From NCBI RefSeq assembly GCF_006345805.1, contig NC_043008.1:79608001-79672000 (forward strand): 64,000 bases of DNA. Direction: 5' to 3'. The notes under the pieces were generated by a model. The model saw only the letters and a list, made by a program, of their open reading frames with translations, had not been told where the DNA came from and did no database searches. This document shows, piece by piece, positions 1-60,013 of this stretch. The translations under genes were made by a program, and so were the position numbers. Origin of the DNA: Octopus sinensis (lineage: Eukaryota). Each line of letters starts with the position of its first letter. The stretch's first letter is position 1.

Positions 1-1068
1 GTCTGTCCTGTACTTGATGTCGATACCGGACTTGCAGTCCCTAAAGGCGTCGGACAGCATTGCCGAGAACATGATGCTGAACAGTGTTGGGGCCAGGACA
101 CAGCCCTGCCTGACTCCGTTGGTCACCTGGAAGGCTTCAGATGAGTTGCCGTCTTCAAGGACTCTGGCTGTCATTCCGTCGTGGAACTGGCGGACAATTG
201 CAATAAATTTGCTGGGGCAACCAAATTTTCCCATGACCTTCCATCCTTCCATAGTCCCTCCCGACTGACTGTATCGAAAGCCTTGGTGAGGTCAACAAAG
301 GTCATGCAGAGGTCAAGGTGCTGCTCCATGCATTTCTCCTGGAGCTGGCGGGCGGCGAATATCATGTCAGTGGTCCCTCGACCCACGCAGAAGCCACACT
401 GGCTCTCAGGGAGAAGGCCTTGCTCCAAGTGTTCCAGAAGGCGGTCAAGCAGGACTTGGGCCAGGATCTTGCCTGCTATGGACAAGAGGGAGATTCCTCG
501 GTGGTTGTCGCAGGACTGCCGATCTCCTTTCCGCTTATAAATGTGGACGATTGTTGCATCCCGGAAATCTTGAGGGAGTTGTTCCCTGTCCCACATCGAC
601 TGGAACAGGCTGGTGAGCTGACTGATCATGGTGGGGCCGCCCGCCTTGAACACCTCTGCAGGGATGGCGTCAGAGCCTGGAGCTTTGCCGGTGGACATTT
701 TTTTGATGGCTCTGCTCACTTCCTCGATTGCAGGGGGAACAGCCAGCTTGTGGTTTGTCGGCACCTGGGGGGAGTCGTGCGATGGCTTCCTCGTTGATCT
801 GGGCTGGTCGGTTGAGCACGATGTTGAAATGCTCTGCCCATCTCTCCAGGATCAGCCTCTTGTTAGTCAGGAGTGAGGTTCCATCCGAGCTGAGCAGGGG
901 GGTTGATCCAAAGGAGAACTGCGGTCCATAGACAGCTTTCAGCGCCTCGTAGAATTTCTTGGTGTCGTGTTTGTCTGCGTATCCCTGAATCTCATCCGCC
1001 TTGGCGCTTAACCATGCGTCTTGCATGAGGCGGAGTTTAGCCTGGACTGTGCTGTGAATGTTGTTGAA
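1..1068 (-). mobile_element. RTE/BovB-like LINE reverse transcriptase fragment (frameshifted)
   Basis: ORFs 670..1026 and 171..764 contain GKAPGSDAIPAE, NHRGISLLSIAGKIL and FVDLTKAFDTVSR; a GVRQGCVLAPTLF motif lies near 80-120. Confidence 0.9.
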
Positions 1069-6279: not shown

Positions 6280-7446
6280 CACAAGGCTCAAGATACCTTC
6301 TTGGAATGTGACTATATGAGATTTATTTTACAACTTAGTCCCTTTGCAGTCCACACACTTCTTCCAGTGTTGCATTGCTTGGATCTCATTGAAGAAGCCT
6401 TCATCCCATTGGTAAAAAAAAAGTTATCATCATCACTGCAATACTGCTTCCTAGCCAAGAGTTTTTTTCATGCTGGGGAATAGATGATAGATGGGGCTAA
6501 ACCAGGAGAACAAGGAGGGTGATTAACCAGTTCAAAGCCACAGTCATGTCCAGCAGCCATTGAAACCTAAGAATTGTGTACTGGAACACTGTCCTAATGA
6601 AACAAGTCTCCTTTCATAAGTTTTCTTGAGTGTTTGGTCTTGATAGCCTTTTGCAACTGCCTCTGCAAGTTGGCATAGTACTCTTCTATGATGATGTAGG
6701 CCTTTTGAAAACAGTCAATAAACAATGCTTTTTGCATCCCAAAAACTATGGTCATCATCTTCCTTGCAAATGAAACGACCTTGGCCTTTTTTGGAACAGG
6801 TGAGGAGGGGTGTTTCCACAACATGGATTGTCTTTTTGGCTCAAAGTGATGAATCCAACGCTCATCCTGGGTTAAGAAACGTTCAAGGAAATCAGCTGGA
6901 TCTGCTTCAGACAATGTTATGGTTTTTCTGTGATGTGAACAACCTGGTGCTGAAAGACATGGCACCCACTGAGCAGAAACCATCAAGCCAAGTTTGTTGT
7001 GCAGAATATTCTCAATTCTCACAGAGGATATGCTAATAGCATAGGCTATTTGATTTATAGTAAACATGGTGTTTTTTTCCTTAGTGGTATCAGTGGCAAG
7101 ATGTCCAGGCCTTGGGTCATCTTCAACACTCTCCCTTCTCTTCCTAAATTAAGCTGTCCACCTTTGCACTGTTGATAAAGCTAGAACCTCATCCCCTAAT
7201 ATAGCAACTATGTCAGCATGTCCTTGGGGGCTAAGCCCTTTTTCTGAACAATGCCAAACTTTGTCCAATTTCAAGAGAAGTTGCTACCAGTTACTTTTGA
7301 AGTCTTCTTTGAACAGGCAGATGTCAGTTCACCTGGAAAGAGATAATGCAGTTATTAAGAAGTGTTGAAATCAATGCATGCAAGATTTCACAGCTCTAGC
7401 ATCACTCCTTCATAGTTAGCCTACAAATTCTTCAGCCCACCCTCAT
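6280..7446 (-). mobile_element. Second mariner family remnant
   Basis: ORF 6594..7067 has VSAQWVPCL, FLERFLTQDERWIHHFEP and SSPVPKKAKVV. Confidence 0.8.
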
Positions 7447-17921: not shown

Positions 17922-18650
17922 GCATACATACATTTTGATCTCTTATATGTAAGTATATATTTATCTAAATCTTGTAATTTTGTACGACTATTCTTTCTTT
18001 TATTCTTTCTTTCTTTCTATCAGCCCTTTCATACTTACTTCACTCATTCCACTCTTCATTCTTTTATTCCTCGTCTCTCATATTTCCTTGCCTTCTCTTC
18101 GTGCTCACTTTCATTCCTCTTTTCACTTCAGTGTCCGTCATTTTTTCTTGCCCATCCTTAATTCTTCTGTCCCTCTACCTCTACCTCTCTCTTCTCTCCA
18201 CCACGTGACCTGAGTTCGGCCAAGCCTGACCTTTCTGTCTTGATTCGGATGCTGTCTGTGCAACATCTATATTCCTCCCTGTGCCTGTCAAATCTTATGT
18301 CCCTGCTGTAAGGCTTTATTTCCGCACACGCCAGCTAAATTTAATTCGTCCTTAGTCGAAAAGCACCTGTTATGTCCTGTTACTTGCATTTGTGTACCAG
18401 TCTCCGTTTTTCTTTTTCCGTCCTTGTTTTTGTATAAATGCGCTGCTTTCTTCCAAAGAATCTAATGCTCTTAGCTTAGATTTTCCTTGGGACTGGCCAG
18501 ATTGGAGCAATCTTGAGTATAACCAGCCAAAATTGCAAAGATAAGCTGGAACTCGATTATGGAGGTCATGCGTTCTTGTCATATGTTGTATTTTTTATAT
18601 ATAGCAGCATACATACACTTTGTTCTCTTATATGAAAGTATGTATATATA

Positions 18651-18692
<42 letters not shown>

Positions 18693-19470
18693 ATATGGAC
18701 AGACGTTCACAATTAAAACTAGTTTCACCTGTGCCTCTGAAAACCTAATTTATGTAATAACCTGCTCGGGTTGCGGACACCACTATATTGGACAAACGAG
18801 TATGACCTTGAGAAAGAGAACCACTCTACATAAGGAGCAAATCCGTTTCCCGCAATACAGACAAATTCCTCTCAGTGAACATATAGAAAAATGTGCAGGT
18901 AACATCAAACCAAATTTCACAGTCTTCCCTTTCTACCAGTGCAAAGACAATCTCTCAACTAGAACATTTAAATAAAGAAACTTTTTTCATTGAAAAATAC
19001 AAAACATGTCTTAATATGCATGCATAACCAACTTTTATCTTTTTACATATTTCAATTCACGATTACATCACTGTAAATAAATCCCCTACTAAACAAGGTT
19101 TTTAAAACTTGTCTCTGTCTGTACACATATATAATCCCCACCCATTACCGAAAGCGGAACAGTTATCTCCCTTACCCACAACAATAACAATAGTAATGAC
19201 AACCAATTACCTCCCTTTATTTATTTCCTTGGGAAGTCATTCACTCGTGAATTTCATCACACACAATATGGACCAAATTTCTTCTTAAGAAAAAATATAT
19301 ATTCAAATAAGTAAAACATATCATGAATAGCAATAGTGAAACCGGTCAATATATTAAAAATTATATCAAAACTATGTAAGTGTGCGTATTTTCCTTTTTT
19401 AATTTCTTATATACATTACAACTCACCACGTGGGGATAATCAAAATTCCTCTTTTCTGTTACTACTACTA
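17345..19470 (+). mobile_element. Penelope-like element fragments: duplicated GIY-YIG piece (17345-17490 and 18700-19020), inverted pLTR-like pair and 3' UTR, interleaved with TA tracts
   Basis: FTCASENLIYVITCSGCGHHYIGQTSMTLRKR is a GIY-YIG motif; 17593-17707 and 17780-17850 are inverted copies of each other. Confidence 0.75.
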
Positions 19471-20326: not shown

Positions 20327-22418
20327 GAGAATGAATGGGAGGAGGAGAGCCTGCCAAATGTTGACCCAGTAGAGGGACCAGCTATCCAAATAGACAGCTG
20401 GTTATGTGGGCTATGGTCTAGTCACCCACATTGTAAACCAGGTAGTTCATAATGGAGTCATACCCAATGACTGGCATAGCAGCACCATAGTCAACTGCTA
20501 CGAGGGTAAGGGTGATGCTCTAGATAGAAATAACTACAGGGGTATTAAACTGTTGGATCAGGTGATGAAGGTCACAGAGAGGGTCATAACCCATCTCATT
20601 AGGGAGAGAATTTGCTTAGATGAGATGCAATTCGGTTTTGTGCCGGGTAGAAGCACCACTGATGCTATATTCCTGGTCCAACAACTGCAGGAGAAGTACC
20701 TAGCTAAAGATAGACCCCTCTACATAGCTTTTGTGGACTTGGAGAAAGCCTTTGACAGGGTTCCCTGATCCCTTATCTGGTGGTCGATGCGGAAACTGGA
20801 GATTGACGAATGGCTAATAAGGGCTGTACAGGCTCTATACAGAGAGGCTATCAGCAAGATTAGGATTGGCAACGAATATAGTGAAGAATTCCGGGTAGAA
20901 GTAGGTGTACACCAAGGCTCAGCCCTCAGTCCCCTTTTATTCATCATAGTCCTCCAGGCAATAACAGAAGAATTAAAAACAGGTTGCCCCTGGGAGCTCC
21001 TTTATGCTGATGACCTGGCTCTCATAGCAGAATCACTACCGGAACTAGAAAAGAAATTTCGGGTGTGGAAACAAGGGTTAGAATCAAAGGGCCTTAGAGT
21101 AAATGTAGCAAAGACTAAAGTTATAGTAAGCAGAAAGGCGAACTCAGCACACACCCCATCAGGCAGGTGGCCCTGCTCAATCTGTAGGAAAGGTGTAGGT
21201 AGAAACTCCATAAGATGTACCCAGTGTAAGCTATGGACGCATAAGAGGTGCAGCAACACCAAAGGAAAATTAACTGATAAGATAGCTTTCATGTGCGGCA
21301 GATGCACAGGGACAATAGACACCACAAATACTCAGAAAACAGATTCCATCACACTCCAGGGGGAGAAACTAGAAGTAGTTGATAGTTTCTGCTACCTGGG
21401 TGACCAAGTTAGTAGTGGAGGTGGATGCTCAGAGAGTGTCACCACTAGAATACGAATAGCCTGGGCAAAGTTTAGAAAGCTCCTACCCCTACTGGCGACA
21501 AAGGGTCTCTCACTCAGAGTGAAAGGTAGATTGTATGATGCATGTGTGCGAACTGCCATGCTTCACGGCAGTGAAACATGGGCCGTGACTGCAGAGGACA
21601 TACGTAGACTTGAAAGAAATGAAACTAGCATGATCCACTGGATGTGTAATGTCAGTGTGAATGCACGACAGAGTGTAAGCGCCCTGAGAGAAATGCTAGA
21701 TATAAGAAGCATCAGATGTGGTGTGCAAGAGCGACGCTTGCGATGGTATGGTCATGTACTGCGGATGGATGAGGAGAGATGTGTGAAGAAGTGCCGCTCC
21801 CAAACAGTTGAAGGAATCAGGGGGAGGGGTAGACCCAGGAAGACATGGGATGAGGTAGTCAAGCATGACCTCAGAGCATTGGGCCTCACTGAGGCAATGG
21901 CGAAGGACCGAGATCTCTGGAGATGTGTTGTGACTACAAAGACCCGGGCTGCTTCCGGCTCCAGTTCCGCATAGGCCCTGCCCATTCAAAGTACCTTAGA
22001 TCCCGGAACGTCTCGCTGTGCTTGAGGAGACCTGTTGAGTCAAGTGCATGTACACAAACATCGAAACAAATATCAATGGAAATAGTAGTTGTGATACCTG
22101 TGCTGGTGGCACATAAAAAGCACCATCCGAACGTGGCCAATGCCAGCTCCGCCTTGGCTGGCTTCCGTGCCGGTGGCACGTTAAAAGCACCGACTGATCG
22201 TGGCCGATGCCAGACCCCCCTGGCACCTGTGCAGGTGGCACGTAAAAAGCACCCACTACACTCGCGGAGTGGTTGGCATTAGGAAGGGCATCCAGCTGTA
22301 GAAACACTGCCAGATCAGACTGGAGCCTGGTGCAGCCCTGGCTTCCCAGACCCCGGTCGAACCGTCCAACACGTGCTAGCGCGGAAAATAGACGTTAAAC
22401 GATGATGATGATGATGAT
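20327..22418 (+). mobile_element. 5'-truncated RTE-clade LINE with nearly intact RT (one in-frame TGA at 20766-20768), PHD-like finger, 3'UTR and (GAT)n tail
   Basis: Same-frame ORFs 20406..20768 and 20787..21974 contain NYRGIKLL, FVDLEKAFDRVP, GVHQGSALSPLLF, LLYADDL and RLRWYGHV. Confidence 0.93.
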
Positions 22419-24257: not shown

Positions 24258-27200
24258 ACGGGAAGCTTTATGAAAGTAAACAAAAGACGAAGGCAGGTGG
24301 AAAACAAACGAACAATTGTATTAGTATGGCGCTCAGGAAATATAAATAAAACAAGTCTTTAACGTTTCGAGCCTACGCTCTTCAACAGAAAGATACACAG
24401 AGAGAGGAAAACACACAGAAAGAAGGAGAGAAAAAAATGCGTGCAGTAGATAACGAATCAACATGGCGATCTGATTTCGGCCAGAGGTCAAAGATCAAAC
24501 ATGAGACGCGAGAGCGAAATAAGGGGAGATAATGGGTTGATAAAAGGGTGAGGGACCAGCTAATAGTGCGTAGGAGGGGTCTGGATGTGTGTATGTATAG
24601 GGTTGGTGTATGTATTAGTATGTATAAGGGTGTGTGTGTGTGTGTGTGTGTATGAGAGAGTATTAGTGCGTAGGATTGGTCTGGACGTGCGTATGTATGG
24701 GGTTGGTGTATGTATTAGTATGTATTAGTATGTATTAGTACGTATTAGTATGTATTAGTACTTATGTATAAGTGTGTATAAGTGTGTGTTGTGTGTGTAT
24801 GAGAGAGTATAAGTGCGTATGCGGGGTCTGGACGTGTGTATGTATAGGGTTGGTGTATGTATTAGTATGTACTAGTATGTATTAGTACGTATTAGTATGT
24901 ATTAGTTGGTGTGTGTATTAGTATGGCACATCATATGTGATGTGATGTGTAAAGTCATGTGGTGTAGTGAGGAGAAGAGGGGGAGAGAAGGGAGGGAAGA
25001 GAGGGGGAAGAGGAGAGGAGGGGGAGGAGGGGTGAAGGAGGAAGAGGGAAGGAGTGAGGGAGCAGAGGGAAGGGGAAGAGGGAGGGAGAAAGGGGAAAAA
25101 AGGGGAAGAAGGGAAGGGGAGTAGGGGTGAAAGGATGAAGGACTGAAAGTATGGTCGGGGGAAAGGATAGGTGAGGGGGGGGGAGAGGGGGGTTAGATGA
25201 GGAGGGGGAGGAGGGGGGAGAGTTGGACCAAATGGCGTATAGAGCGAAGAGAGAAGATTAATTCCTGTTCACGGCGCAAACGGGAATCCGGATGGCCTCT
25301 GTGTAAGGACAAACCGAACACAGATAGGTGTTGCAAGGAGTGACCGGTGGAGTGGAAATGGCGTGAGACCGGTGTGTCGTTCGCAAGTTGGATGTCACGA
25401 AGGTGTTCCGCGAACCGGTCAGCCAAGCGGCGTCCCGTTTGTCCGATGTACAAGGAATTGCAGAGAAGCAAGAGATGCAATAGATAATATTGCTGGAGGT
25501 GCAGGTGAAGGAGTGGATGATGGGATAGGGTCGATGGTGGGTGCTAGTGAGGCGGGTGGTGTTTGGAGAGGTAAGGGCAAGTGCGGCAACGTGGGCGGGA
25601 GCAGGGGAACGAGCCGGGTTGGGAGGTAGGGTCAGGGAAGGAGCTATGGACCAAAAGGTCTCGAAGGTTGTGGGCTCGTTTGAAAGAGGGGAGGGGTCGG
25701 TTAGGGAAGAGGTGTGAAGTGGACGGGTCGGACTGGAGATGACGGAAAGCTCGAAGAATGGTGCGTTGGAGACGTAGGGTCGTGTGGTGGTAAGTGAGGG
25801 GAAAAGGGAGGCGGGAGACTACAGGGCGGGTTCGGGGAGAGAGAGCAGATACACGGTCCACGGACCGTGCTCTGGCAAGGGCGGTGTGGATAGTGGTGAG
25901 GGGTATCCACGTAGGGTGAAGTGGTGAGCCATACGTTGAGACGAGTCTCAAAGTCATGGTCGTCACTACAGAGCCTACGTAGACGGAGGAATTGGGAATA
26001 GGGGATGGAAAGCTTGGTGTGTTCTGGGTGGGAGGAAGAGAAGTTGAGGTATGAGTGTGAGTCTGTGTGTTTGTAGTGAATGGAGGTGTTAAGAGTGGAG
26101 TGAAGAATGCTAACCGAAATGTCGAGGAAGGAGACAGAGGTGTTGGAGATAGTGGAAGTGGAAGTGGAGGGCTGGATGGAAAGATTGGACGAAAAGAGGA
26201 AGGAATCTAGATGTTCGCGGGAGAGTGAGGTGGCACCGATAATGTCGTCAATGTAAAGACCATATAGTTCAGGAGTGGGACCAGTGAAATTAGAGAATAT
26301 TTGGGCCTCAACATAGCCAACGAAGGTTCGCATAGTTGGGGCCCATTCGCGTTCCCATGGCCACTCCGAGACCTGATGGTAGAACTCGCCCGCGAACGAG
26401 AAGCAGTTCAGAGTAAGGACAAGTTCGGCCAGACGAATGAGTGTGGAGGTGTCAGGTACAGGGTTAGAGCGGAGGTCAAGAAGTGTCGAAGGGCCTGCAG
26501 TCCTTCGTGGTGAGGGATAACAGTATAGAGGCTTTGGATGTCCATAGTAAAAGGATTTTGGAGGAGCCGGGAGGAAAGGAGAAAGAGTTGAAAAGCCGGA
26601 GAGCATGGTTGTATCGTGGATGTGGGAGGGAAGAGATGCCACTAGGGGGGCAAGGACACGGTCGAGGTATTTAGAGATGAGCTCCGTGGGGCAGTTACAG
26701 GCGGAGACGATGGGGCGGCCAGGGTTGTTGGGTTTGTGGATTTTGGGGAGGAAGTAAATGGTGGGGGTACGTCGGGTTCGCACAATTAGGTTGGATGCGG
26801 TGCGGGGGAGACGGGAGGACGAGATGAGGTCTTGGACAGTAGAGGATACCGTCTGTTGGTAGCTACGTGTGGGGTTAGAGGGCAGAGGGGGAATAGAAGG
26901 AGGTGTCATTGAGTTGGCGGAAAGCCTCGGCCCTATAGAGGTCCGCGCGTCACACCACTACAGCTCCACCCTTGTCAGCCGGTTTGATGATAATGTCAGC
27001 GCGCCGTTGGAGGGAACGAAGAGCCAAGAGCTCAGCCGGGGAGATGTTGAGGCGGCGTTGGCGCCTGGAGAAGTTGAACCGCTCCAATGCACGCTGACAA
27101 GCGCCCGCGAAAAGATCCACTGCTAGGATCTGGCCAGGGGCAGGCGTCCACGGGGATGGTCGGCGGCCCAGGCCAGTGAAGCAGTCCTCTTCGTTGGGTG

Positions 27201-28051
27201 TGGGTGGCGAGTCGTGGTAATGCGCACCCAACCGGACACGGCGCACAAAGCTGTGGACATCAACTCGCGTCTGGAATTCCTTACAGAATGGAGTGAGGGG
27301 GATGAAACGCAGACCCCTACCAAGGACGGAGCGTTCAGCCGCAGAGAGGGGAAGATCGGGGGGAATGGTAACAACAGACGGAAGTGGAGAGGGGGTGGGT
27401 GGAATAGAAGTAGGAGGGGTGGTAGGTCTCGTGGAGGTCTGAGGGGGAGGGTTGGGGAGGTGTGTGGGGGGGGGGGGGGCAGTAGGGTTAGGTGTAGGTG
27501 GATGGAGCCTAACGGGAGGGGAAAAGGGGTTGTAGGGAGGGGCAGTGGGGTTAGGTGTGGGTGGATGGAGCCTATCGGGAGGGAGAAGGGTGGTGGAGGA
27601 GTTGGGGTATTGGCGTCGGGTAGGGTGGAATGGAAGAGTGATTGGAGTTTACGAAGTTTGGTATCAGAAAGAAATTGATGGAAGAGTTGATTCAAATGAT
27701 AATGAAGCGTAGCGTGTTTGGAGCATAGAGAGGCGGCAGAGAGGAGAAGAAGGTGGAGAAAGCAGGAGGAAGAAGGCGGTTGATGGCATGTAGTTTGGAG
27801 AGATTGGAGGGAATGGTGGCCCGCATAAGGCGGTAAGATGTGGTGCGGAGTATGGGTAAGATGGAAGAATCCGAGTGGAGAGCAGGGTGGAAGGGAGGCG
27901 GAAACCTTTAAGGATGAGTCGGTGATGTAGGCAGCGGCTTAGGAAAGAGACATGGCTAGAGAAGCGGGTTTTTTTAAAAAGAAGTAGAGAGAGATTAACG
28001 GACGGCTGAAGGCAATATACAGGAAGCGAACGGAGATGATCCTTCAAACGG

Positions 28052-29073: not shown

Positions 29074-30338
29074 CGAGGGGCGTTCAATAAGTAATGCTCC
29101 TGACCCACTTGCAGTTATTTGATCTAGCTGAAATTTTGCATGTACAATTATTCATATCTTTATAGATTAAGTGGCAAATTACAGCTCTGAACTAATTGTG
29201 GTTTCTGATTTACGGGTGTTTGAACTGAGTCAAGTGTGAAATGGAGCCTGTTGAGTATCGAGCAATGATCCGGTTTTTGTATTTAAAAGAACACACACCA
29301 CGGGAGACTTTTGATGAAATGAAAGTAACTTATGGTGATGATGCCCCATCATATGAACTTGTAAAACGCTGGCATCGTGAATTCAAACATGGTCGGAACT
29401 CTGTGGAAACAGCTCCCAGATCTGGTCGCCCCCTTCTGCCATTGATGAGGCATCTGTCCATCATGTTGAGGCTGCCATTTTGGAAGATCGACGCATAACT
29501 ATTCGCCAAATAGCCCATGAGGTCAAGATTAGTACTGGGTCTGTGGAAACTATCATTCATGACCATTTGCATATGCAAAAGGTGTCTGCCAGATGGATTC
29601 CCAGGTTGCTCACATCTTTCCAGAAGCAAGAACGTGTCGATTGCTCGAGAATGAATTTGGAGATGTGCCAAGAAGATGAGTCAAAATTTTTCAAAAGACT
29701 GATTACACAGGATGAAACCTGGGTCCATCACTATGATCCAGAGACCAAAGCCCAGTCAATGCAGTGGACACACCGTGACTCACCTCCTCCAAAGAAGGCA
29801 AGGGTGCAGCCCTCTGCTGGCAAGGTCATGCTCACAGTCTTCTGGGACCAGGACGGAGTACTGATGACAGATTTCCTGGCAAAGGGTGCCACAATTACAG
29901 GAGCCTATTATGCTTCACATTTGAGGAAATTAAGAGAAGCTATCAAAATCAAGAGCCGGGCAAGATCAGCAAAGGCATCCTCCTCTTGCAGGACAATGCT
30001 CCGGTTCACAACTCGCGTGTCGCCAGATCAGAAGCACAGGCGTGCGGCTATGAACACATCCCCCATCCCCCTACTCTCCTGACCTTGCACCCTCTAATTT
30101 TAACCTCTTCCCAGTCATGAAGTTGTTTTTGCAGCCTTGATTTCTGAAGTCACGTCGTGGTTGGAGGACCAAGCTGGGGTCTTCTACAAAAACGGTCTTC
30201 AGAGCTGCATCAAACGATGTGAGAAATGCGTAACTCTGGGTGCTTCCTATGTAGAAAAAGACTAATACTGTGCCAAGTTTCGTTGCTCCTACTGCTATGG
30301 GAAGTGGGTCAGGGGCATTACTTATTGAACGCCCCTCG
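29074..30338 (+). mobile_element. Full-length mariner element (1265 bp), frameshifted transposase
   Basis: TA-flanked TIRs CGAGGGGCGTTCAATAAGTAATG...CATTACTTATTGAACGCCCCTCG; WIPRLL, ITQDETWVHHYDPE, QDNA and a YSPDLAPS-like motif. Confidence 0.95.
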
Positions 30339-30914: not shown

Positions 30915-31447
30915 AATACAGTTTACTTAACAAATTTGGTCCTTCATCTGGTACAGCTTATTATAGAGATATTTTCAGCCATTCAATTTGGGGGAGAACT
31001 TAGTTATGAAATATTTTTCTATATTCCTCCTGAAGGAGGTGTCGTTCTTTAGATATTTGTAGAAGGGAAAGATCTTAAATTTTCCTTCTCCACATGTATC
31101 TAGGTGCTTACTCAGTGGCATCTTGCGCAGTTCTTCCTGTCGGACATGTTGTCAGTGAATCCTGGCTCGTTGGCACAAAGAATTTCCAGTTTCACCTATG
31201 TAATCCGCTTTGCACGTGGGGCAGGTTATGCAGTATATTACATTCTGCGTCTTGCAGTTCATATCTGCATTTACTTTAAATATGTGACCACTTTTAAATT
31301 TCATTTCTTTGTCTCCCTCTATATATCTGTAGGTGGCATTTGCCGCCTTTCCCCATTCCCGTGGTGGATTTCCGGCTTGCTGAGCATCATTGCCGCGACT
31401 TAGGGCCCGTGGTGGAATCAGAAGGCCTTGTGCCTGAGTGGCGGCGT
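30915..31447 (-). mobile_element. Penelope-like GIY-YIG endonuclease fragment
   Basis: [36 protein letters not shown]. Confidence 0.8.
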
Positions 31448-31687
31448 AACAATATATACATATATACATATATATATACATATATATATATACATACATG
31501 TATATATATACATATATATATATACACATATATATACATATATGTACAAATATATACATCATATATAATATATTACATATATACATATATGTACATATAT
31601 ATATATACATATATATACATATATGTACATATAATATACATATATATATATATACATATATATACATATATGTACATATATATATAC

Positions 31688-31720
<33 letters not shown>

Positions 31721-31729
31721 CATATATAT

Positions 31730-31835
<106 letters not shown>

Positions 31836-32029
31836 ATTATATGTTTAAGTAGTTGAATGAATTATCCTATTATGGATAATTCGGTTAACCGATACCCGGG
31901 TAGCAAATTTACGTCAGAAAGCACGGTTGAAGCTACATGCCAAGGGTAGAAATCACGTGCTTTTGTGTGGAAATTTGTGTTTTTTTATAGTTAAATGAAA
32001 GGATGGAGTCGAACGACGATTTAACAAAA

Positions 32030-32191
32030 TTCCTTTATTCTCAACATATGTTTCGAAGACTGCATATTCTTAATTCCGAAGGAATAAAGGGTAGCTGATT
32101 ATTATTATCATTATCATTATTTAACTATTTCACACTAATTTGTGTAATAAACTTTTACTTATGCCGTCTTCTCATCAGGAAAGACAAGGAA
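32030..32191 (-). ncRNA. Type I hammerhead ribozyme candidate (copy A) with long stem II loop
   Basis: TTCCTTGTCTTTC CTGATGA GAAGACGGCAT ... ATGCAGTCTTC GAAAC ATAT GTT GAGAATAAAGGAA. Confidence 0.65.
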
Positions 32192-32226
32192 CTTATGTCA
32201 GCATCATGACGAACAAAAACTTTTAG

Positions 32227-32326
32227 NNNNNNNNNNNNNNNNNNNNNNNNNNNNNNNNNNNNNNNNNNNNNNNNNNNNNNNNNNNNNNNNNNNNNNNNNN
32301 NNNNNNNNNNNNNNNNNNNNNNNNNN
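32227..32326. other. Assembly gap (100 N)
   Basis: Run of n characters. Confidence 1.
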
Positions 32327-34435: not shown

Positions 34436-35365
34436 CGAGGGGCATTCAATAAGTAATGCCCCTGACCCACTTCCCATAGCAGTAGAGCAACAACACTTGG
34501 CACAGTTATTAGTCTTTTCCTACATAGGAATTACTCAGAGTTATGCATTTCTCCCATCGTTTGATACAGCTCTTTGCCAGGAAATCTGTCATCACTACTC
34601 CGTCCTGGTCCCAGAAGACTGTGAGCATAACCTTGTCAGTGGAGGGCTGCACCCTTGCCTTCTTTGGAGGAGGTGAGTCACGGTGCTTTCACTGCATTGA
34701 CTGGGCTTTGGTCTATGGATCATAGTGATGGACCCAGGTTTTATCCTGTGTGATCAGTCTTTTGAAAAATTTTGACTCATCTTCTTGGCACATCTCCAAA
34801 TTCATCCTCGAGCACTCAACGCGTTCTTGCTTCTGGAAAGGTGTGAGCAACCTGGAAATCCATCTGGCAGACACCTTTTGCATATGCAAATGGTCATGAA
34901 TGATAGTTTCCACAGACCCGGTACTAATCTTGACCTTATGGGCTATTTGGCGAATAGTTATGCGTTGACCTTCCAAAATGGCAGCCTCAACTTGACGGAC
35001 AGACGTCTCATCAATGGCAGAAGGGGGCGACCAGATCTGGGATCTGTTTCCACAGAGTTCCGACTATGTTTGAATTCACAATGCCAGCGTTTTACAAGGT
35101 CATATGATGGGGCATCATCACCATAAGTTACTTTCATTTCATCAAAAGTCTCCCGTGGTGTGCGTCCTTTCAAATACAAAAACCAGATCACTGCTCGACA
35201 CTCAACAGGCTCCATTTTACACTTGACTCAGTTCAAACACCTGTAAATCAGAAACCACAATTAGTTCAGAGCTGTAATTCGCCACTTAATCTATAGAGGT
35301 ATAAATAAGTGCTAGATCAAACAACTGCAAGTGGGTCAGGGGCATTACTTATTGAACGCCCCTCG
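34436..35365 (-). mobile_element. Internally deleted copy (930 bp) of the 29074-30338 mariner, in inverted orientation
   Basis: Same TIRs with TA flanks; ORFs 34958..35215 and 34713..34976 match the first copy; deletion junction near 34570. Confidence 0.93.
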
Positions 35366-36004: not shown

Positions 36005-36405
36005 ATTACTCTTTTACTTGTTTCAGTCATTTGACTGCGACCATGCTGGAGCACCGCCTTTAGTCGACCAAATCGACCCTGGGTCTTATTCTTTGTAAGC
36101 CCAGTACTTATTCTATCGGTCTCTTTTGCCGAACCGCTAAGTGACGGGGACATAAACACACCAGCATCGGTTGTCAAGCAATGCTAGGGGGACAAACACA
36201 GACACACAAACACACACATACATATATATATATACATATATACGACAGGCTTCTTTCAGTTTCCGTCTACCAAATCCACTCACAAGGCATTGGTCGGCCC
36301 GGGGCTATAGCAGAAGACACTTGCCCAAGATGCCACGCAGTGGGACTGAACCCGGAACCATGTTGTTGGTTAGCAAGCTACTTACCACACAGCCACTCCT
36401 GCGCC
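36005..36405 (-). mobile_element. tRNA-derived SINE (resembles octopus OR1/CORE-type)
   Basis: GGCGCAGGAGTGGCTGTGTGGTAAG (A box) ... GGGTTCAGTCCC (B box) ... CTTGGGCAAGTG core; a second copy lies at 54145-54410. Confidence 0.8.
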
Positions 36406-36594
36406 TATACATATATATATATATATATACATATGTATATACATATATATATATATACATATATATATTTAAGTAGTTGAATGAATTATCTTAGTATGGA
36501 TATAACGGAATATTTTAAAGAAACACTCATTATCGCTATGGCTCCGTGTGGGCAGTCATCTAAAAGTTTTTGTTCATCTTGATGCTGACGTAAG

Positions 36595-36693
36595 TTCCTT
36601 GTTTTTCCTGATGAGAAGGCGGCATAATGCACCCCTTATTCCTTCAAAATTAGGAATATGCAGCCTTTGAAACATATGTCAAGAATAAAGGAA
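36595..36693 (+). ncRNA. Type I hammerhead ribozyme candidate (copy B), GUC cleavage triplet
   Basis: TTCCTTGTTTTTC CTGATGA GAAGGCGGCATA ... TATGCAGCCTTT GAAAC ATAT GTC AAGAATAAAGGAA. Confidence 0.7.
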
Positions 36694-36783
36694 TTTTGTT
36701 AAATCGTCGTTCAACTCCATTCTTTCATTTATTTGTATATATACATATATATATACATACATATATATATATGTATATACATA

Positions 36784-37610
36784 TCTCTTATTATAAAAGG
36801 CAGATTTTATCTGCCTCCCTTTGTCAGTTATAGAAATCTACAATATAGGATTTCTTCAATTACAATTTACCTAGCATTTTTAAGAGTAGAATGCATCGGG
36901 TTTTGCCAGGTCCGGTTTTTAAAATTTCAACCCCAATTAAGCAAAATTTTGAGAAAACTCACATTCTGGTGTATATGTCAAATGCTTTTCTTAGTTTGGG
37001 TTACAGCACACGCAAACACACACACACAGTGTGCAACGAATAAACTGAAACTAATTCACTGTGTGTTGACAGGTAGACAATAGAATGCGAGAATAAAATG
37101 AAAGTAATTCACCTTTTGTAGTGAGTGACTCTTTCAGTCTGCCACTTCCTCTTTACACACATAGACACGCAAATATATAAATAAAATTGTAAGCTAACGT
37201 GCGTGTGTGTGAGTGTGTGTGTGTGTGTGTGCGTGCGTGTGCGTGAGTGTGTGACAGGAAAGTATTTTAGGACGAATATAAGACCTATATCGGCGATGTT
37301 TCGCTTGTCGTAGCACAGGTTTCCATCGATTTCCGTAAAAACCTTTTATTTTTTTACATAAGTAATGAGAGCGAAAGAGACTAAGAGAAAGCGATTGTAT
37401 GACGAGGGAAGTTCTTTTGAAGTTACCGTGCATTGGACGCATTGATGTACATGTGTGGTGTGTTTGATGGAGTGTGGGAGACAGACAGTATGTTGTGTAA
37501 GTGAAGTGCTTCTGTTAGTGTGTGTGAAGAGACAGAGAGAGTAATGTGTGAAAGAGAGAGATAACTGAAATTTTTTACTCGGTTTATGTGTATATGTATG
37601 TATGCATGTA

Positions 37611-37641
<31 letters not shown>

Positions 37642-39066
37642 GTGTGTGTGTGTATGTATGTATGGCCGATTCAGTGTTTACATTTTTTACGGAAATCGAC
37701 GGAAACGTGTGCTACGACAAGCGAAACATCGCCCCTATATCCAAGTAGCAGAAAGATCGCCCAAAAGTGTATATAGATATTTAAATGTATTTATATATTC
37801 ATCTATACACAGATGTATGTATAATGTGTGTGTATATATTTCCATACACATAACCATTCACTCCGCACAAAGTTTTTTAGGACGAAAATAAGATCTAAAG
37901 TTATCTCTAAGTAGCACAGAGATCGCCCAAAAGTGTATCTAGATATATAAATGTATTTATATATTCATCTATGCACACATGTATGTATAACGTGTGTGTA
38001 TATATTTCCATAGAGGTAACCATTCACTCCATACAAAGTTTTTTAGCACGAAAATAAGATCTAAAGTTATCTCTAAGAAACAGAAAGATCGCCCAAAAGT
38101 GTATATAGATATTTAAATGTATTTATATATTCATCTGTACACACATGTATGTATAATGTGCGTGTATATATTTCCATAGAGGTAACCATTCAATCCATAC
38201 AAAGTTTTTTAGGACGAAAATATTTATATATAAAAGAAGGTTGTGTGTCTGTCTACTCCAATTTAGATTCCTAACTACTCCCACATTTTGCGATGCAGTT
38301 TAACCAAAACCGGGTATCTTATAGTCGTGATTCATATCGAGCCCTTCTGGGTATTAGCGCGCGTCTACGATGAGTCTATGATTTTACAAATAATTTACCA
38401 TCATTTTTTTCCATTTTAATGCATATTTTTTTTAATAAACGGAAGTAACTCTCAAACTTCACACCAATATGCGTGCTCATATGTGACGTAATATCACATC
38501 AGCAGCATTTCCTCACACCCTCCTTGTACTTGGCGAAGGCAAAATACCAGGGGATGAAAATGGTAATATTGCCATCGATTCCATTTGTACCATTGTTAAG
38601 ACGCCTTCTGATCTCAGAGATGCAGTGTTCCCAGATCTACAAGCTAATTATCAGAATATGGATTGGATTGGCAAAAAGGCTATACTGGCCCCGAGGAATA
38701 AAACTGTTCACCATATTAATGATGAAATGCTGAAACTCATTCCTGGGGAAGTCTATGTATATCAGTCTATCGATACAAATCCTGACCCAGAGGACGTCAT
38801 CAATTATCCAATAGAGGTACTCAATTCCTTTGAGCACCCCGGACTACCACCACACTTTCTCAAACTTAAAGTTGGTGCCCCTATAATGCTCATCAGAAAT
38901 TTGGTTCCCCCAAAACAATGCAATGGCACACGTTTGATCGTTAAGTCCTTATCTCCCACCGTAAGCTTATATCAATATTTGCCTGAATAATCATCATAAT
39001 TCAGTGCAATCATTAACAGTACTTTCAAGCAATTCAGCCCCGAGCAACGCCGGGCAATTCTGCTAG
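36784..39066 (+). mobile_element. Non-autonomous Helitron with PIF1 helicase fragment
   Basis: A|TC start (tctcttattataaaag); ORF 38625..38990 has AILAPRN...PGLPPHFLKLKVGAPIMLIRNL...CNGTRL; 3' hairpin CCCGAGCAACGCCGGG then CTAG|T. Confidence 0.82.
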
Positions 39067-39187: not shown

Positions 39188-41108
39188 CAGATAAAGAAGC
39201 TTGGGTAATAGAAAATATCAAGTCACACCCTAAAGCTTTCTTTAAGTTTGCCAAAGAGACAGCCACAGTGCGCCAGAGAATAGGACCTCTCTTCCAAAAA
39301 GATGGCTCACTCACAGGAAATCCCACGAGGATAAGTGAAATACTGAACGAACAGGTCCAATGTGCATTCACTACACCTTTAGGACACAGGCAAGTAAACA
39401 AACCAGAAGAATTCTTTGCCAAAGAGGCAAAAATTAAGTACATCAACATTGAAGATGATGATATCACACTGGCCATAGATGAGATTGACACAAACTCAGC
39501 TGCTGGGCTTGATGGATTTCCAGCGATCCTTCTCAAATCGTGCAAATAAGTCCTTGCAAAACCGCTACAGCTTCTTTTTCAGAGCTTTCTTGCAAGTGGT
39601 AAGCACCCAGTCAAATGGAAAGATGGGGTAATATGCCCTATCCATAAGGGAGGAAGCAGAGCAGATGCTAAAAATTATAGGCCTATCTCTCTGACCTCAC
39701 GCATCAGCAAAGTCATGGAACGAATAGTTTACAAGAAACTAATCATGTTCCTTGAAGAAAATGACTTGCTGACTGAAACCCAGCATGGATTTCGACCAGG
39801 TAGAAGCTGCCCAACGCAGCTCCTGCAACACTACGACTGGGTGTTAAACAGCTACTAAATGGCTCAAATGTAAATGTGATATATCTCGACTTTGCAAAAG
39901 CCTTTGATAAAGTCGACCATGGTATGATCTGTCACAAACTGCATGGTCTCAGCATAGGCGGAAAACTTGGAGAGTGGTTGCACAACTTCCTAAAAGATAG
40001 AAGGCAGGTAGTTGTGGCCAATGGAACCACTTCCAAGGAAACACAAATAACAAGCAGTGTTCCACAGAGCACTGTCTTGGGGCCACTGCTGTTCATAGTG
40101 GCCCTTTCAGTTGCTAAGATTGCCACCCTTGCTAGCTATGCAGATGACACAAAAGTTTCCCACACAATACAAAACCCTGGAAATATTGCACATCTGCAAT
40201 GGGAGTTGGATACAATATACATGTGGGCTGAGGACAACAACATGCAGTTTAATGCAGGGAAGTTCCGGGCTCTGCGCTACCGGCACACAAAGGTAAACGA
40301 CATGCAGACCGGATACACTGGCCCAGGAAGAATTGTAATTCCTGAGTCAAAATCAGTGCATGACCTGGGCATTGACATGAGCAATGATGCATCTTTCCAA
40401 GTGCATATTACTAATTTGGTGATAAAATGCAGACGGCTAGCTGGATGGATTCTCCGAACTTTCAGAACAAGAGAGAAGGAGACGCTGATGGTCCTTTGGA
40501 AGACATTCATCCTCAGCCACTTGGACTACTGCTCCCAACTATGGTCACCACGCAATATAAAGCTAACAGCAGAACTCGAAGCAATTCAATGAAGCTACAC
40601 CAAGAAAATCGTCTCAATGCAACATATCAGCTACTGGGAAAGACTGAAAGTATTAAAACTCTTCTCCCTGGAGCGAAGGCGGGAGAGATGTGCAGTGATA
40701 TACATCTGGAAAATCCTGGAGGGTCTTGTCCCAAACTTTGGCATTCAAAGTTACCCCAACCGTAGAACGTGGCGCCACTGCATGGTGCCAAAGATTCCAA
40801 CATCACCATCAAAATACAGGACCTGATACTGCAACAGCTTGGGTATCAGAGGACCACAGCTCTTTAACATCCTCCCTAAATGCCTGAGAGACCTGCATGG
40901 TGTGGATGTGGGTTTCTTTAAAACTAAACTGGATCTCTTCTTGTCAGGGGTCCCAGATGAACCTACCTCTCAGCAGGAAACACAGATGCAGGCAGCGGCA
41001 TCGAACTCCCTTCTTGATTAAGTGCCACGTATCAGAGGTGGTTTCACATAGCTCATTCAACGGTGGTGCCCCTGCATGGCCACAGCCTTTGGGCTGAAAT
41101 ATTTTTAT
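39188..41108 (+). mobile_element. CR1-like LINE RT region and 3' end, with stops and frameshifts
   Basis: NYRPISLTS, QHGFRPGRSC, YLDFAKAFDKVDH, VPQSTVLGPLLF, SYADDTK and HLDYCSQLWSP. Confidence 0.9.
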
Positions 41109-42741: not shown

Positions 42742-45260
42742 AGGCACATGAAGCTACTGTCCGCCGTCCCAGGTTCTCATGGGCCCATACCTCCCACACC
42801 CTCAGGGTTGGCACTCTCAACGTTAGCACACTGAAAGGTAGGTCTGGTGAGATTGTTGAGATGCTTGAACGGAGATGTGTCGATATGTGCTGCATCCAAG
42901 AAGTAAAGTGGAGAGGAGGTTCTGCTAGGTTCCTCACATGCAAAGAACACAGGTACAAGATTTTCTGGGCTGGGAACACTGATGGGGTCAGAGGCATGGG
43001 TATACTTCATGCTGAAAAATGAGTAAATAAGGTAATTGAGGTAGTCAGAGTATGCAACAGAATACTTAAGATTAGATTAGTGCATCACCATAGGTTAACA
43101 ACCACTATATCAGCCTATGCCCCTCGGCTGGGGCTAACCGATGGACAGAAAGACCGATTCTATGACACTCTACTGCAGACTAACTCGTTGACAAATGACA
43201 AGCACCTTCTCTTTGTGGCTGGTGACTTCAATGGACATGTTAGACAACATACAGTGACCTTCCATGGAGTACATGGAGGCTACAGTTATGGTTCCCACAA
43301 CGAGGAGGGAACCAGGTTGCTGGAGTTCTGCGATGCAAATGATCTTATGGTTTGCAATACTAACTTCAGGAAACCTACCAGCCACCTAATCACCTACCGC
43401 TCGGGCTGACATACTAGCCAAATTGACTACATCCTTGCCAGAAAAAGGGAAAGATGGCTGCTTACAAGTGCCAAAACCTTCCCAGGCGAAGAATGTACCT
43501 CACAACATAGACTGGTAGTTAGTGACTTTAGGATCAAGACTAAGTGGACAACCAGAAGACGACCAACATGGAGAAGAAGGGTCTGGATCCTGCAAATGGA
43601 CAGAGATTTAGTGACATATTACTCGAAGCCTTTGACGAAATAGAAGGGGATATAGCTTCACATGGTGTAGAAGACAACTGACGGTTTCTAAGGGACAACC
43701 TGCTGAGAGCCACTGGCCAGATATGTGGATGGTGCAAACAGACAGGCTTGGAAGGACTGGAAGAACAGTGGTAGCAGGGAATCATATCAGACTGCCAGAA
43801 GAGAAACTAGGAGACAGGTTTATTCAGCTAGAGGGGAAGCAGATAAGAAAAAATTTGCCAATGTTCTGCGCCGTGAGGACCAAAGACTTGAGGTATTTCA
43901 TGTTGCAAGACAGTGTGTGAGAGAGAATTGTGATGTAGGAGAGAAATGTGTCCACATGGATGATGGTTCTCTTGCACTAAATGGGGCTGCAAAGAGAGAG
44001 GTTTGGAGACACCACTATGAAACATTGCTGAATAAAGAAAATGAATGGGAGAGAGTCTGCATAATGTCGACCAGCTATCCATGTTGACAGTACCTTGGTA
44101 GATAAAGCAATTAAAAGTATGATGACAGGGAAAGCCCCCAGCCCATCAGGAATTACTGCAGAGATGCTCAAAATATCTGGCAGTGTCGGCTATAGCCTGT
44201 TCACCCGTATAGTTAACCAGGTGATATACAAAGGAGTCATATCCAATGGCTGGTGTAGCAGCATAATAGTCAACTGCTACAAAGGTAAAGGAGACGCTTT
44301 AGATACAAATAATTACAGAGGTATCAAGCTCTTGGATCAGGTAATGAAGATCACGGAGAGGGTCATAGCCCAAGTAATTAGGGAGAGAGTCAGTTTGGAT
44401 GAGATGCAGTTTGGTTTCGTGCCAGGGAAAAGCACCACTGATGCTATATTTCTGGTTAGACAGCTGCAGGAGAAATACCTAGCCAAAGATAAGGCCCTGT
44501 ACCTGGCTTTCATTGACATGGGGAAAGCCTTTCACAGAGTCCTCCAATCCCTTATCTGGTGGTCAATGAGGAAACTAGGGATAGATGAATGGTTAGTGAG
44601 AGCTGTGCAAGCCATTTACAGGGACGCTGTCAGTAAGGTGAGGGTTGGCAACGAGGACAGTGAAGAATTCCGGGTAGAGGTTGGGGTCCACCACAGTTGT
44701 CCTCAGCCCCTCCTATTTATCATAGTCCTCCAGGCAATAAGACAGGATGCCCCTGGGAGCTCCTCTATGTTAACGACCTTGCTCTAATTGCTGAGTCACT
44801 ATCAGAACTAGAGAAGTTTCAGGTGCGGAAACAAGGACTAGAATCGAATGGACTTAGAATCAACCTAGCTAAAACCAAAGTCCTAATAAGTAGGAAGGCA
44901 GGCAAACCACAAATCCCTTCAGATAGATGGCCCTGCTCGATCTGTAGAAAAGGTGTAGGTAGAAACTCTATAAGATGTACCCAGTGTAAGCTATGGACAC
45001 ATAAGAGGTGCAGCAATAACAAAGGAAGGCTAACTGGGAGGATAGCTTTTATATGTGGCAAATGCTCAGATGCTATAAATAACACTGAAAATGTGCAGAG
45101 AACAACTTCCACCACATTCCAGGGAGAAAAACTAGAAGTAGTTGATAGCTTCCATTACCTAGGTGACCAAGTCAGCAGTGGGGGAGGGTGCGCTGAAAGT
45201 GTAGCTGTTAGAATAAGAATAGGGAGCTCTTATCTCTACTGGTGACAAAGGTAGACTAGA
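42742..45260 (+). mobile_element. Decayed RTE LINE (APE, RT and PHD-like finger), same family as 20327-22418
   Basis: LRVGTLNVSTL, CCIQEVKW, VAGDFNGHV, QIDYIL, NYRGIKLL, LLYVNDL and WPCSICRKGVGRNSIRCTQC. Confidence 0.9.
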
Positions 45261-59440: not shown

Positions 59441-60013
59441 CTAGGCAGCAGCCTGAGAGGCAGCTGGAGTTACCTCTGCACTTGAAGAGGGAGGCCCAGA
59501 CATGCTGTCTTCAGATTTGTTAGGAGGAACACTGTCTTCTGCCTTCTGGTTACCACTTTCATTAATTCCTGGTTCACCTTCAGACAGCTCCCTCTGACCT
59601 GAACGTCCTCCCCGGGAACTCCATCTACCTCGCCTAAAGCTGCCACCACCTCTGGTACGTCTGGGTCGTCTCCGGAAAGCTTGGGGAACAGATTGGCCAC
59701 TATCATCTTCATGTTCATTATCCCTTGGAGGGCCACCATGGGGATAGCGATGCATGGGAGGACGATAGTATCTACGGAAGAAGGGACGTCGCCGACGGAA
59801 AGGGGGAGGGCCATGCATCCTTGAATCTCCTTCACCAGCTGATCCATGCTCATCCTGAGGAACACTTCTAGACGGCATACCTCGTCTTGGCCCACGGAAG
59901 AAACGCTTTCTTCTCCAGTATGGCCTGCGCCTGGTTGGAGGCCTGTTCCTTTCTTCACTACCGCCACCATCTCCACTTTCACCTTCAACTTCTTCTTTAG
60001 CTTCCTCACCCTC
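59441..60013 (-). CDS. YBX1: Y-box protein last coding exon: alternating acidic and Arg/aromatic C-terminal islands, TAG stop
   Basis: ttttcttgtag|GAGGGTGAG translates EGEEAKEEVEGESGDGGGSEERNRPPTRRRPYWRRKRFFRGPRRG and continues in frame into ORF 59441..59878 (MPSRSV...SQAAA*). Confidence 0.92.
   Translation of the reverse strand, partial: EGEEAKEEVEGESGDGGGSEERNRPPTRRRPYWRRKRFFRGPRRGMPSRSVPQDEHGSAGEGDSRMHGPPPFRRRRPFFRRYYRPPMHRYPHGGPPRDNEHEDDSGQSVPQAFRRRPRRTRGGGSFRRGRWSSRGGRSGQRELSEGEPGINESGNQKAEDSVPPNKSEDSMSGPPSSSAEVTPAASQAAA

What the first reader, a model, noticed from the sequence alone, without database searches (positions are those of the whole stretch)
36468..36732. Hammerhead ribozyme with covariation support in a small non-coding element (copy B, plus strand)
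Seen: a complete type I hammerhead layout of stem I, CUGAUGA, stem II, GAAAC, ATAT and GUC. Relative to copy A (32030-32191), stem II changes from GAAGAC/GTCTTC to GAAGGC/GCCTTT. That is an A-U to G-C compensatory swap plus a tolerated G-U pair, while the loop length differs by about 60 nt. The segment begins with a 30-nt block (tttaagtagttgaatgaattatc...) that is the inverted 3' end of copy A. Established: Penelope-like elements and retrozymes carry minimal type I hammerheads with palindromic stem III and often insert with an inverted partial LTR. Inference: this is an ORF-less ribozyme-bearing retroelement family, either a solo pLTR or retrozyme-like, whose RNA fold was under selection.
Basis: partly seen in the sequence, partly recalled or inferred. 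Interest (0 to 1): 0.75.

Follow-up and report, generated by a model that had tools for sequence, protein, structure and literature searches.

The report
Decayed tail of Penelope-like retrotransposon
This 265-base piece is the broken-off 3' end of a common protein-coding Penelope-like jumping gene lodged in a TA repeat; its hammerhead-ribozyme motif is real and conserved across thousands of relatives, but this copy is mutated and likely inactive, so the finding is mostly ordinary.

Summary
The hammerhead layout is present as described and is far beyond chance. It is not an ORF-less element. 36501-36738 is the 3' UTR of an autonomous Penelope-like element (PLE) with reverse transcriptase and C-terminal GIY-YIG endonuclease. 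36468-36502 is the family's inverted last 35 bases. The 265-bp unit's junction occurs once in the genome. A related motif has 7,389 exact matches, control 0. Stem II covaries across subfamilies, and the stem III 8-mer stays self-complementary (AUAU/AUGU/ACGU), which fits a dimeric ribozyme. The A-U/G-C swap is a real subfamily difference. B's G-U is a near-private CpG-type change, B has also lost the first stem I pair, and A's longer loop is a private insertion. The protein looks Hydra-clade but lacks that clade's CxCX5C linker (0 of 37 copies vs 75 of 80 homologues), yet 85 of 107 ends abut (TA)n. Cleavage is untested. The scan found this kind of element before on other DNA.

The parts
36406..36467 (.). 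(TA)n-type microsatellite on the left, the likely insertion target; it follows a SINE-like repeat (about 36007-36405)
   Evidence: sequence; 85 of 107 family ends abut TA-rich DNA vs 6% background
36468..36502 (-). inverted copy of the last 35 bp of the element (distal end E2)
   Evidence: BLAST query 1-35 hits the distal end of family copies in opposite orientation
36501..36502 (.). 2-bp TA microhomology at the inversion junction; this junction is unique in the genome
36501..36738 (+). 5'-truncated 3' UTR of the PLE, ending at the proximal end E1; 96.7% identical to ORF-linked copy L032; begins about 460 bp downstream of the ORF stop
36595..36607 (+). hammerhead stem I, 5' arm (distal 36595-36600, proximal 36603-36607)
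36608..36614 (+). hammerhead core CUGAUGA
36615..36668 (+). long stem II (36615-36626 with 36657-36668, one mismatch) enclosing a 30-nt loop with an inner hairpin; G10.1-C11.1 is G-U in this copy
36669..36680 (+). GAAA core, self-complementary 8-mer ACATATGT (36672-36679, predicted dimeric stem III) and GUC triplet; predicted cut after C36680
36681..36693 (+). stem I, 3' arm; A36681 (family G) breaks the first pair
36736..36785 (.). (TA)n-type microsatellite on the right
   Evidence: sequence
31844..32226 (-). copy A: separate insertion of a sister subfamily, running to the distal end E2 next to (TA)n; private ~63-nt insertion in loop II (about 32096-32158); GTT triplet; its 5' side is cut by a 100-N gap at 32227-32326

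Best explanation
The segment is a 5'-truncated, decayed insertion of the 3' untranslated end of a protein-coding Penelope-like retrotransposon (reverse transcriptase plus GIY-YIG endonuclease, Hydra-like), carrying the family's type I hammerhead motif, which is predicted to self-cleave only as a dimer or with protein help and is likely inactive in this copy. Shown: the family has an RT-EN ORF upstream of this UTR; copies end at two fixed 3' points, about 53 nt (E1) and about 200 nt (E2) past the cut site, next to (TA)n; B joins an inverted 35-bp E2 end to a forward 238-bp E1 end at a 2-bp microhomology. Inferred (about 0.65): the endonuclease nicked both strands of a (TA)n tract, each nick primed reverse transcription on the element RNA, one at E2 and one internally at E1, and the two short cDNAs were joined. 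Inferred (about 0.6): in full pLTR-ORF-pLTR source copies the two hammerheads pair through the palindromic 8-mer and cut out unit-length, perhaps circularised, RNA. The integration template is uncut or circular RNA, because no copy ends at the cut site. After insertion B decayed neutrally (4 substitutions and 1 deletion in about 232 bp; 3 are CpG transitions, 2 of them in core-flanking pairs).
For: Upstream continuity into the ORF at 95-96% identity over 1.2-3.2 kb. RT motifs FDI.SFYPSI, MGS.DSAQIADL, YRDD and GIY-YIG (Pfam PF01541 E 2.7e-4, just under its cut-off). Open 906-aa frame between 442-bp direct repeats with an inverted 5' piece and 3' (TA)n in sister copy L097. 126 PLE-type homologues at E<=0.001; the 120 listed are 30-43% identical. 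Ends: 59 at E1, 48 at E2, 5 elsewhere, 0 at the cut site, of 112. 19 of 19 neighbouring motif pairs within 5 kb, among the first 100 of 7,389 matches, are head-to-head inverted. Covariation: 10 of 26 pairs with two-sided change, slid controls 1-3 pairs. Palindrome kept in 13 of 13 representatives; monomer stem III pairing probability 0.00-0.15, self-duplex -6 to -10 kcal/mol. Precedent: PLE tails, inverted 5' copies and (TA)n targeting (PMC8557442); two RT start sites, both strands cut and extended, and a protein-assisted hammerhead not needed for insertion (PMC11167929); low dimer-only activity of metazoan PLE hammerheads (PMC4209133).
Against: No cleavage was measured. Among young genomic copies the core is not clearly more conserved than other non-CpG sites (8/858 vs 108/8056), so selection shows only between subfamilies. 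The 13 representatives are related, so the shuffle control overstates significance; the alignment was structure-free but the structure was named by me. Direct tandem pLTRs, needed for a cis dimer, were seen in only 1 of 23 long loci, against 13 with inverted ends only. Pfam gives no RT hit for P0003 or P0004; the RT call rests on motifs and on collinearity, read by eye, with Hydra-1_Obim in the paper's supplement. Two subfamilies have mismatches in stem II pairs 4-5.
Confidence: 0.88

Rival explanations
1. An ORF-less, retrozyme-like family of about 265 bp, copied as a unit through hammerhead-made circles.
For: Most copies are short and lack the ORF: 27 of 42 loci show no tblastn hit within about 1.5 kb. 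Animal retrozymes derive from pLTRs (bioRxiv 10.64898/2026.07.22.740005, abstract and introduction).
Against: The unit's junction occurs once; the nearest similar copy L012 has a different junction. 5' ends are staggered from about -1 to -1260. No same-strand pair among 19 close pairs. The sequence is continuous with an RT-EN ORF.
Confidence: 0.04
2. The motif in this family is a conserved RNA structure used for protein binding or RT positioning; self-cleavage is vestigial.
For: 0 of 112 ends at the cut site. Hammerhead mutants do not affect insertion in the anole PLE (PMC11167929). Tandem copies are rare. Stem II is much longer than the catalytic fold needs.
Against: All catalytic positions (CUGA.GA, GAAA, UH) and the core-proximal pairs stay fixed across subfamilies as low as 53-60% identical in this region, with H varying only between C and A among the representatives. 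That pattern is expected of catalysis. The scan for representatives required the core, so this is partly built in.
Confidence: 0.15
3. Copy B itself is an active, host-useful ribozyme.
For: The core nucleotides are intact and stem II is predicted to form (P about 0.92-0.99).
Against: B is the only one of 104 rows that lacks both G10.1-C11.1 and the first stem I pair. Predicted P(2.1-1.1)=0.00 and active-fold penalty 4.9 vs 2.2 kcal/mol for intact L002. No same-strand partner lies nearby; A is on the other strand.
Confidence: 0.03

Closest known systems
Hydra clade of C-terminal EN+ Penelope-like elements, incl. Hydra-1_Obim (Craig et al. 2021, PMC8557442; passages, section 11 and supplement parts seen)
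   Same: Single RT + C-terminal GIY-YIG ORF; DKT motif; no CCHH; CxxC and CxH around the conserved E and N; (TA)n targets; 3' type I hammerhead with very short stem III; inverted 5'-truncated copies; tail.
   Different: CxCX5C linker absent, replaced by an Asn/Ser-rich stretch; RWL instead of RWK; unit about 3.7 kb vs under 3 kb; stem II about 12 bp with a 30-nt structured loop vs 3-7 bp and 3-10 nt loops in the paper's File S2; tail about 150 bp vs the 30-40 bp described for PLEs. Hydra-1_Obim has a different hammerhead and protein, so it is not the same family.
Minimal/dimeric hammerheads of metazoan PLEs (Cervera and de la Pena 2014, PMC4209133; parts 1-2 of 4 read)
   Same: Type I, palindromic helix III region, G10.1-C11.1, long helix II, mostly dispersed single motifs from truncated PLEs, pairs on opposite strands 100-700 bp apart.
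   Different: Longer, branched helix II; no unpaired base between A9 and 10.1 in B's subfamily.
Poseidon element PAc of Anolis (Frangieh et al. 2024, PMC11167929; parts 1-2 of 4 read)
   Same: Two RT start sites that define a tail, AT-rich targets, both strands cut and extended, no ends at the hammerhead cut site.
   Different: Different clade; there the hammerhead overlaps the ORF start, here it lies about 570 nt after the stop; cleavage is shown there, untested here.
Animal non-LTR retrozymes (bioRxiv 10.64898/2026.07.22.740005, part 1 of 5 read; PMC7229834, search listing only)
   Same: Type I hammerhead of pLTR origin.
   Different: Retrozymes are non-coding tandem repeats with one hammerhead per unit; this is a dispersed truncation of a coding element with no tandem unit.

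Membership tests
EN+ Penelope-like elements | Single ORF with RT and GIY-YIG endonuclease in the family | tested here: met
   RT motifs and C-terminal GIY-YIG in one frame (645 aa in L072, 906 aa in sister copy L097); Pfam GIY-YIG just under cut-off, no Pfam RT hit
EN+ Penelope-like elements | pLTRs from partial tandems, inverted 5'-truncated copies | tested here: met
   L097 has 442-bp direct repeats plus an inverted piece; 13 of 23 long loci have inverted ends only; 19 of 19 close pairs inverted
EN+ Penelope-like elements | Optional tail (two alternative 3' ends) | tested here: met
   59 ends at E1 and 48 at E2 of 112; about 150 bp apart, longer than the published 30-40 bp
EN+ Penelope-like elements | Hammerhead motif in the pLTR | tested here: met
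Hydra clade | C-terminal GIY-YIG without CCHH; CxxC and CxH flanking conserved E and N | tested here: met
   IYQC...YIG with one Cys; CGVC..E..N..CMH and CNLC..E..N..CPH
Hydra clade | DKT motif | tested here: met
   QSDKTRN in L094 and L097
Hydra clade | N-terminal RWK motif | tested here: inconclusive
   RIRWL at the homologous place vs RMRWK in Hydra-1_Obim
Hydra clade | CxCX5C linker zinc finger before the endonuclease | tested here: not met
   0 of 37 distinct family translations vs 75 of 80 EN-bearing homologues among 120 listed; filed therefore as Hydra-like, not as a plain member
Hydra clade | Insertion into (TA)n | tested here: met
   85 of 107 E1/E2 ends followed by TA-rich 14-mers vs 6% background
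Hydra clade | RT phylogeny groups with named Hydra elements | not tested
   no tree was built with named references; collinearity with Hydra-1_Obim read by eye only
Type I hammerhead ribozyme | Core CUGANGA, GAAA, NUH and three stems | tested here: met
   all six scored features intact in 80 of 104 rows; B keeps the core but fails two flanking pairs; RF00163 hit on L002 below gathering score
Type I hammerhead ribozyme | Site-specific self-cleavage | not testable with these tools
   only contigs of guessed RNA runs were available
Non-LTR retrozymes | Non-coding family with no ORF | tested here: not met
Non-LTR retrozymes | Head-to-tail tandem units of a few hundred nt, one hammerhead each | tested here: not met
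   0 of 19 close pairs on the same strand; unit junction single-copy
Non-LTR retrozymes | Abundant circular RNA | not testable with these tools
   no raw RNA reads on offer

The most novel reading that the evidence does not exclude
A large, recently active Hydra-like PLE lineage has lost the linker zinc finger proposed to steer PLEs to microsatellites yet still targets (TA)n strictly, so targeting comes from the GIY-YIG core, the RT, or the RNA itself; its long branched hammerhead arm, conserved by covariation, would be the protein-binding element that switches on a dimeric ribozyme and yields circular templates copied from two internal start sites.
Probability: 0.2. Interest if true: 0.55.

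Novelty: new variant of a known kind. Interest (0 to 1): 0.27.

Why it matters
The flagged copy is a likely dead fragment of a known kind of retrotransposon, so it matters little alone. The family is a useful test bed for two open points on Penelope-like elements. First, what the hammerhead does: here there are thousands of copies, several subfamilies with compensatory changes in stem II and in the dimer palindrome, and an intact pLTR-ORF-pLTR copy. Second, what directs microsatellite targeting: this lineage keeps (TA)n insertion without the linker zinc finger that PMC8557442 associates with it.

Tried and rejected
Rfam: the whole-window scan gave only microsatellite-driven miRNA-type hits and no hammerhead; B alone gave none at E<=10. 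Expression: no RNA holder listed on record. Contigs of 7 different guessed-RNA runs (8 layings) cover parts of the UTR and ORF but cannot show strand, level or ends; no joint at the cut site was listed, which says nothing either way. A two-strand dimer fold crashed, so dimer support rests on the 8-mer self-duplex and on palindrome covariation. tblastn of the ORF against the window found nothing: no ORF remnant lies next to A or B, and A's 5' side is hidden by a gap. Pfam did not detect the RT. A test for purifying selection on the core among young copies was flat. Rejected: ORF-less unit family; loop-length variation as a family trait (the other A-like hits have 3 nt where A has 66); identity with Hydra-1_Obim. 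The distal hairpin as drawn for B's subfamily is broken at one pair in 29 of 104 rows. Paper searches turned up no description of this family; Repbase and Dfam could not be checked, and only part of the supplement of PMC8557442 was seen. A look-up of earlier findings by sequence was blank.

Full report
Observation. The motif is at the stated place on the + strand: CTGATGA 36608-36614, GAAGGC/GCCTTT, GAAAC ATAT GTC ending at C36680, with stem I arms at 36595-36607 and 36681-36693. A relaxed type I descriptor that asks for a self-complementary stem III finds only B and A in the window and nothing in 30 of 30 shuffles. Copy A is on the - strand, has a GTT triplet and a loop 63 nt longer. The first 35 bp of B are the inverted far end of the element. 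Rfam misses B but gives a sub-threshold RF00163 hit on an intact relative.

What it belongs to. The window's genome is 2.72 Gb; from its repeat landscape I take it to be octopus-like (recalled, not shown by a call). A search with B gave 3,426 first-look candidates; 40 were scored, and most match B positions 34-265 at 95-97%. Relatives have staggered 5' ends. The longest run on into an ORF with a C-terminal GIY-YIG domain and further into RT motifs. L072/L094 holds a 645-aa open RT-EN frame and B's UTR at 95.7%. A sister copy, L097, has an open 906-aa frame between 442-bp direct repeats, an inverted 5' piece and 3' (TA)n: the textbook PLE layout. The exact junction that defines the 265-bp unit occurs once in the genome, so the unit is a one-off truncation. 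A tight hammerhead pattern for this lineage has 3,690 + 3,699 matches and 0 for the reversed control; B itself fits it.

Clade. The protein has DKT, RWL in place of RWK, no CCHH, and CxxC/CxH around the endonuclease's E and N. These are the marks given for the Hydra clade in section 11 of PMC8557442, and it is collinear by eye with Hydra-1_Obim in that paper's supplement. It is a different family: the hammerheads differ. Of 120 listed homologues, 80 carry a recognisable endonuclease and 75 of those have the CxC..C linker; 0 of 37 distinct translations from this lineage do. Yet 85 of 107 ends at the two fixed 3' points abut TA-rich DNA, against 6% background. I therefore file it as an EN+ PLE, Hydra-like, with the linker missing; no tree with named references was built.

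Covariation. From 125 BLAST hits in loci L001-L096, 115 were near full length and 104 remained after removing identical contexts (86 distinct strings; some sites fetched twice remain; the sample is biased to best matches of B, A and an ORF stretch; A is excluded because its insertion splits the hit). At pair 36619/36664 there are 50 G-C, 18 G-U, 34 A-U and 2 unpaired rows, a plausible G-C to G-U to A-U path between subfamilies. B's G-U at 36615/36668 is in 3 of 104 rows. B differs from its nearest copies by 4 substitutions and 1 deletion; three are CpG transitions, and one breaks the first stem I pair. All six scored features are intact in 80 of 104 rows; B alone lacks both core-flanking pairs. 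A G-U at that position is, however, fixed in a sister subfamily, so it may be tolerated. A's long loop is private. I aligned B with 12 real copies: 10 medoids of clusters with 2 or more members and 2 singletons that I picked, out of 26 clusters from 183 hits (53-94% identical). 10 of 26 named pairs show two-sided changes (7 of 12 in stem II), slid controls give 1-3, and RNAalifold finds the same stem II. The central palindrome pair reads U-A in 8, U-G in 3 and C-G in 2, so the 8-mer stays self-complementary in 13 of 13. Relatedness inflates the shuffle control. Among young copies the core is not clearly more conserved than other sites, as expected if selection acts on source elements only.

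How it likely works. Monomer folds give stem III a pairing probability of 0.00-0.15, while the 8-mer self-duplex is -6 to -10 kcal/mol. This fits the dimer model for metazoan PLE hammerheads, which cleave weakly and not as monomers (PMC4209133). Copies end about 53 or about 200 nt after the cut site and never at it (0 of 112), so the integration template is uncut or circular RNA. The anole PLE behaves the same way: two RT start sites, both DNA strands cut and extended, and a protein-assisted hammerhead not needed for insertion in vitro (PMC11167929). B's anatomy, an inverted E2 end joined to a forward E1 end at a TA microhomology inside (TA)n, is what priming from both nicked strands would leave (inference). 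All 19 close motif pairs among the first 100 matches are head-to-head, and direct pLTRs were seen in 1 of 23 long loci, so a cis dimer is available only to rare source copies. RNA data could not address expression or cleavage.

Verdict. A real hammerhead motif with real family-level covariation, in a likely inactive fragment of an autonomous PLE. The class is known. Paper searches found no description of this family, but Repbase and Dfam were not available. Earlier scan notes report the same kind of element, the long arm and a linker-less family on other DNA; I reached these points from my own calls before reading them, and they are not independent support. Interest 0.27.

Noticed in passing
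window 36007-36405: SINE-like repeat whose (TA)n tail hosts copy B; similar sequence flanks several other family copies (e.g. L002, L030). The SINE label is recalled.
   Followed up: no
window 59441-60013 (+): Open frame with alternating Arg-rich and acidic blocks, resembling the C-terminal part of a Y-box protein (recalled); probably a host exon.
   Followed up: no
window 25258-27938 (-): Frameshifted RT and GIY-YIG remnants of another PLE with a CxxxxCxxC linker, probably Neptune-type (recalled); further GIY-YIG remnants at 18523-18975 (+) and 31152-31730 (-).
   Followed up: no
window 29145-29884 and 34572-35311: 740-bp inverted pair, 94% complementary, encoding a mariner-like transposase fragment; a related fragment lies at 6594-7148.
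   Followed up: no
window 171-851, 20769-21974, 39804-40592, 44065-45245, 38487-38990: LINE-type RT fragments and a Helitron-like helicase fragment (labels recalled from the translations).
   Followed up: no
L097:2452-4035: Contigs in two runs (X1, X9) join mid-ORF sequence to the hammerhead region through the same short spacer, which suggests an internally deleted or short-UTR derivative.
   Followed up: no
L117-L128 and related (ACGT-loop subfamily): A very young subfamily: 40 of 40 scored loci at 99-100% identity over about 145 bp, with a perfect ACACGTGT palindrome and GUA triplet; ORF-linked in several loci.
   Followed up: partly
window 36634-36642 vs 36683-36691: Loop II sequence is complementary to the 3' arm of stem I (a perfect 9-nt match in A's subfamily), which could allow an alternative fold; seen by eye and not conserved in distant subfamilies.
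   Followed up: no
P0003, P0004: About 130-150 aa Asn/Ser-rich, fast-evolving stretch between the RT thumb and the endonuclease; the closest homologue P0005 has a shorter Asn-rich stretch and still has the Cys linker.
   Followed up: partly
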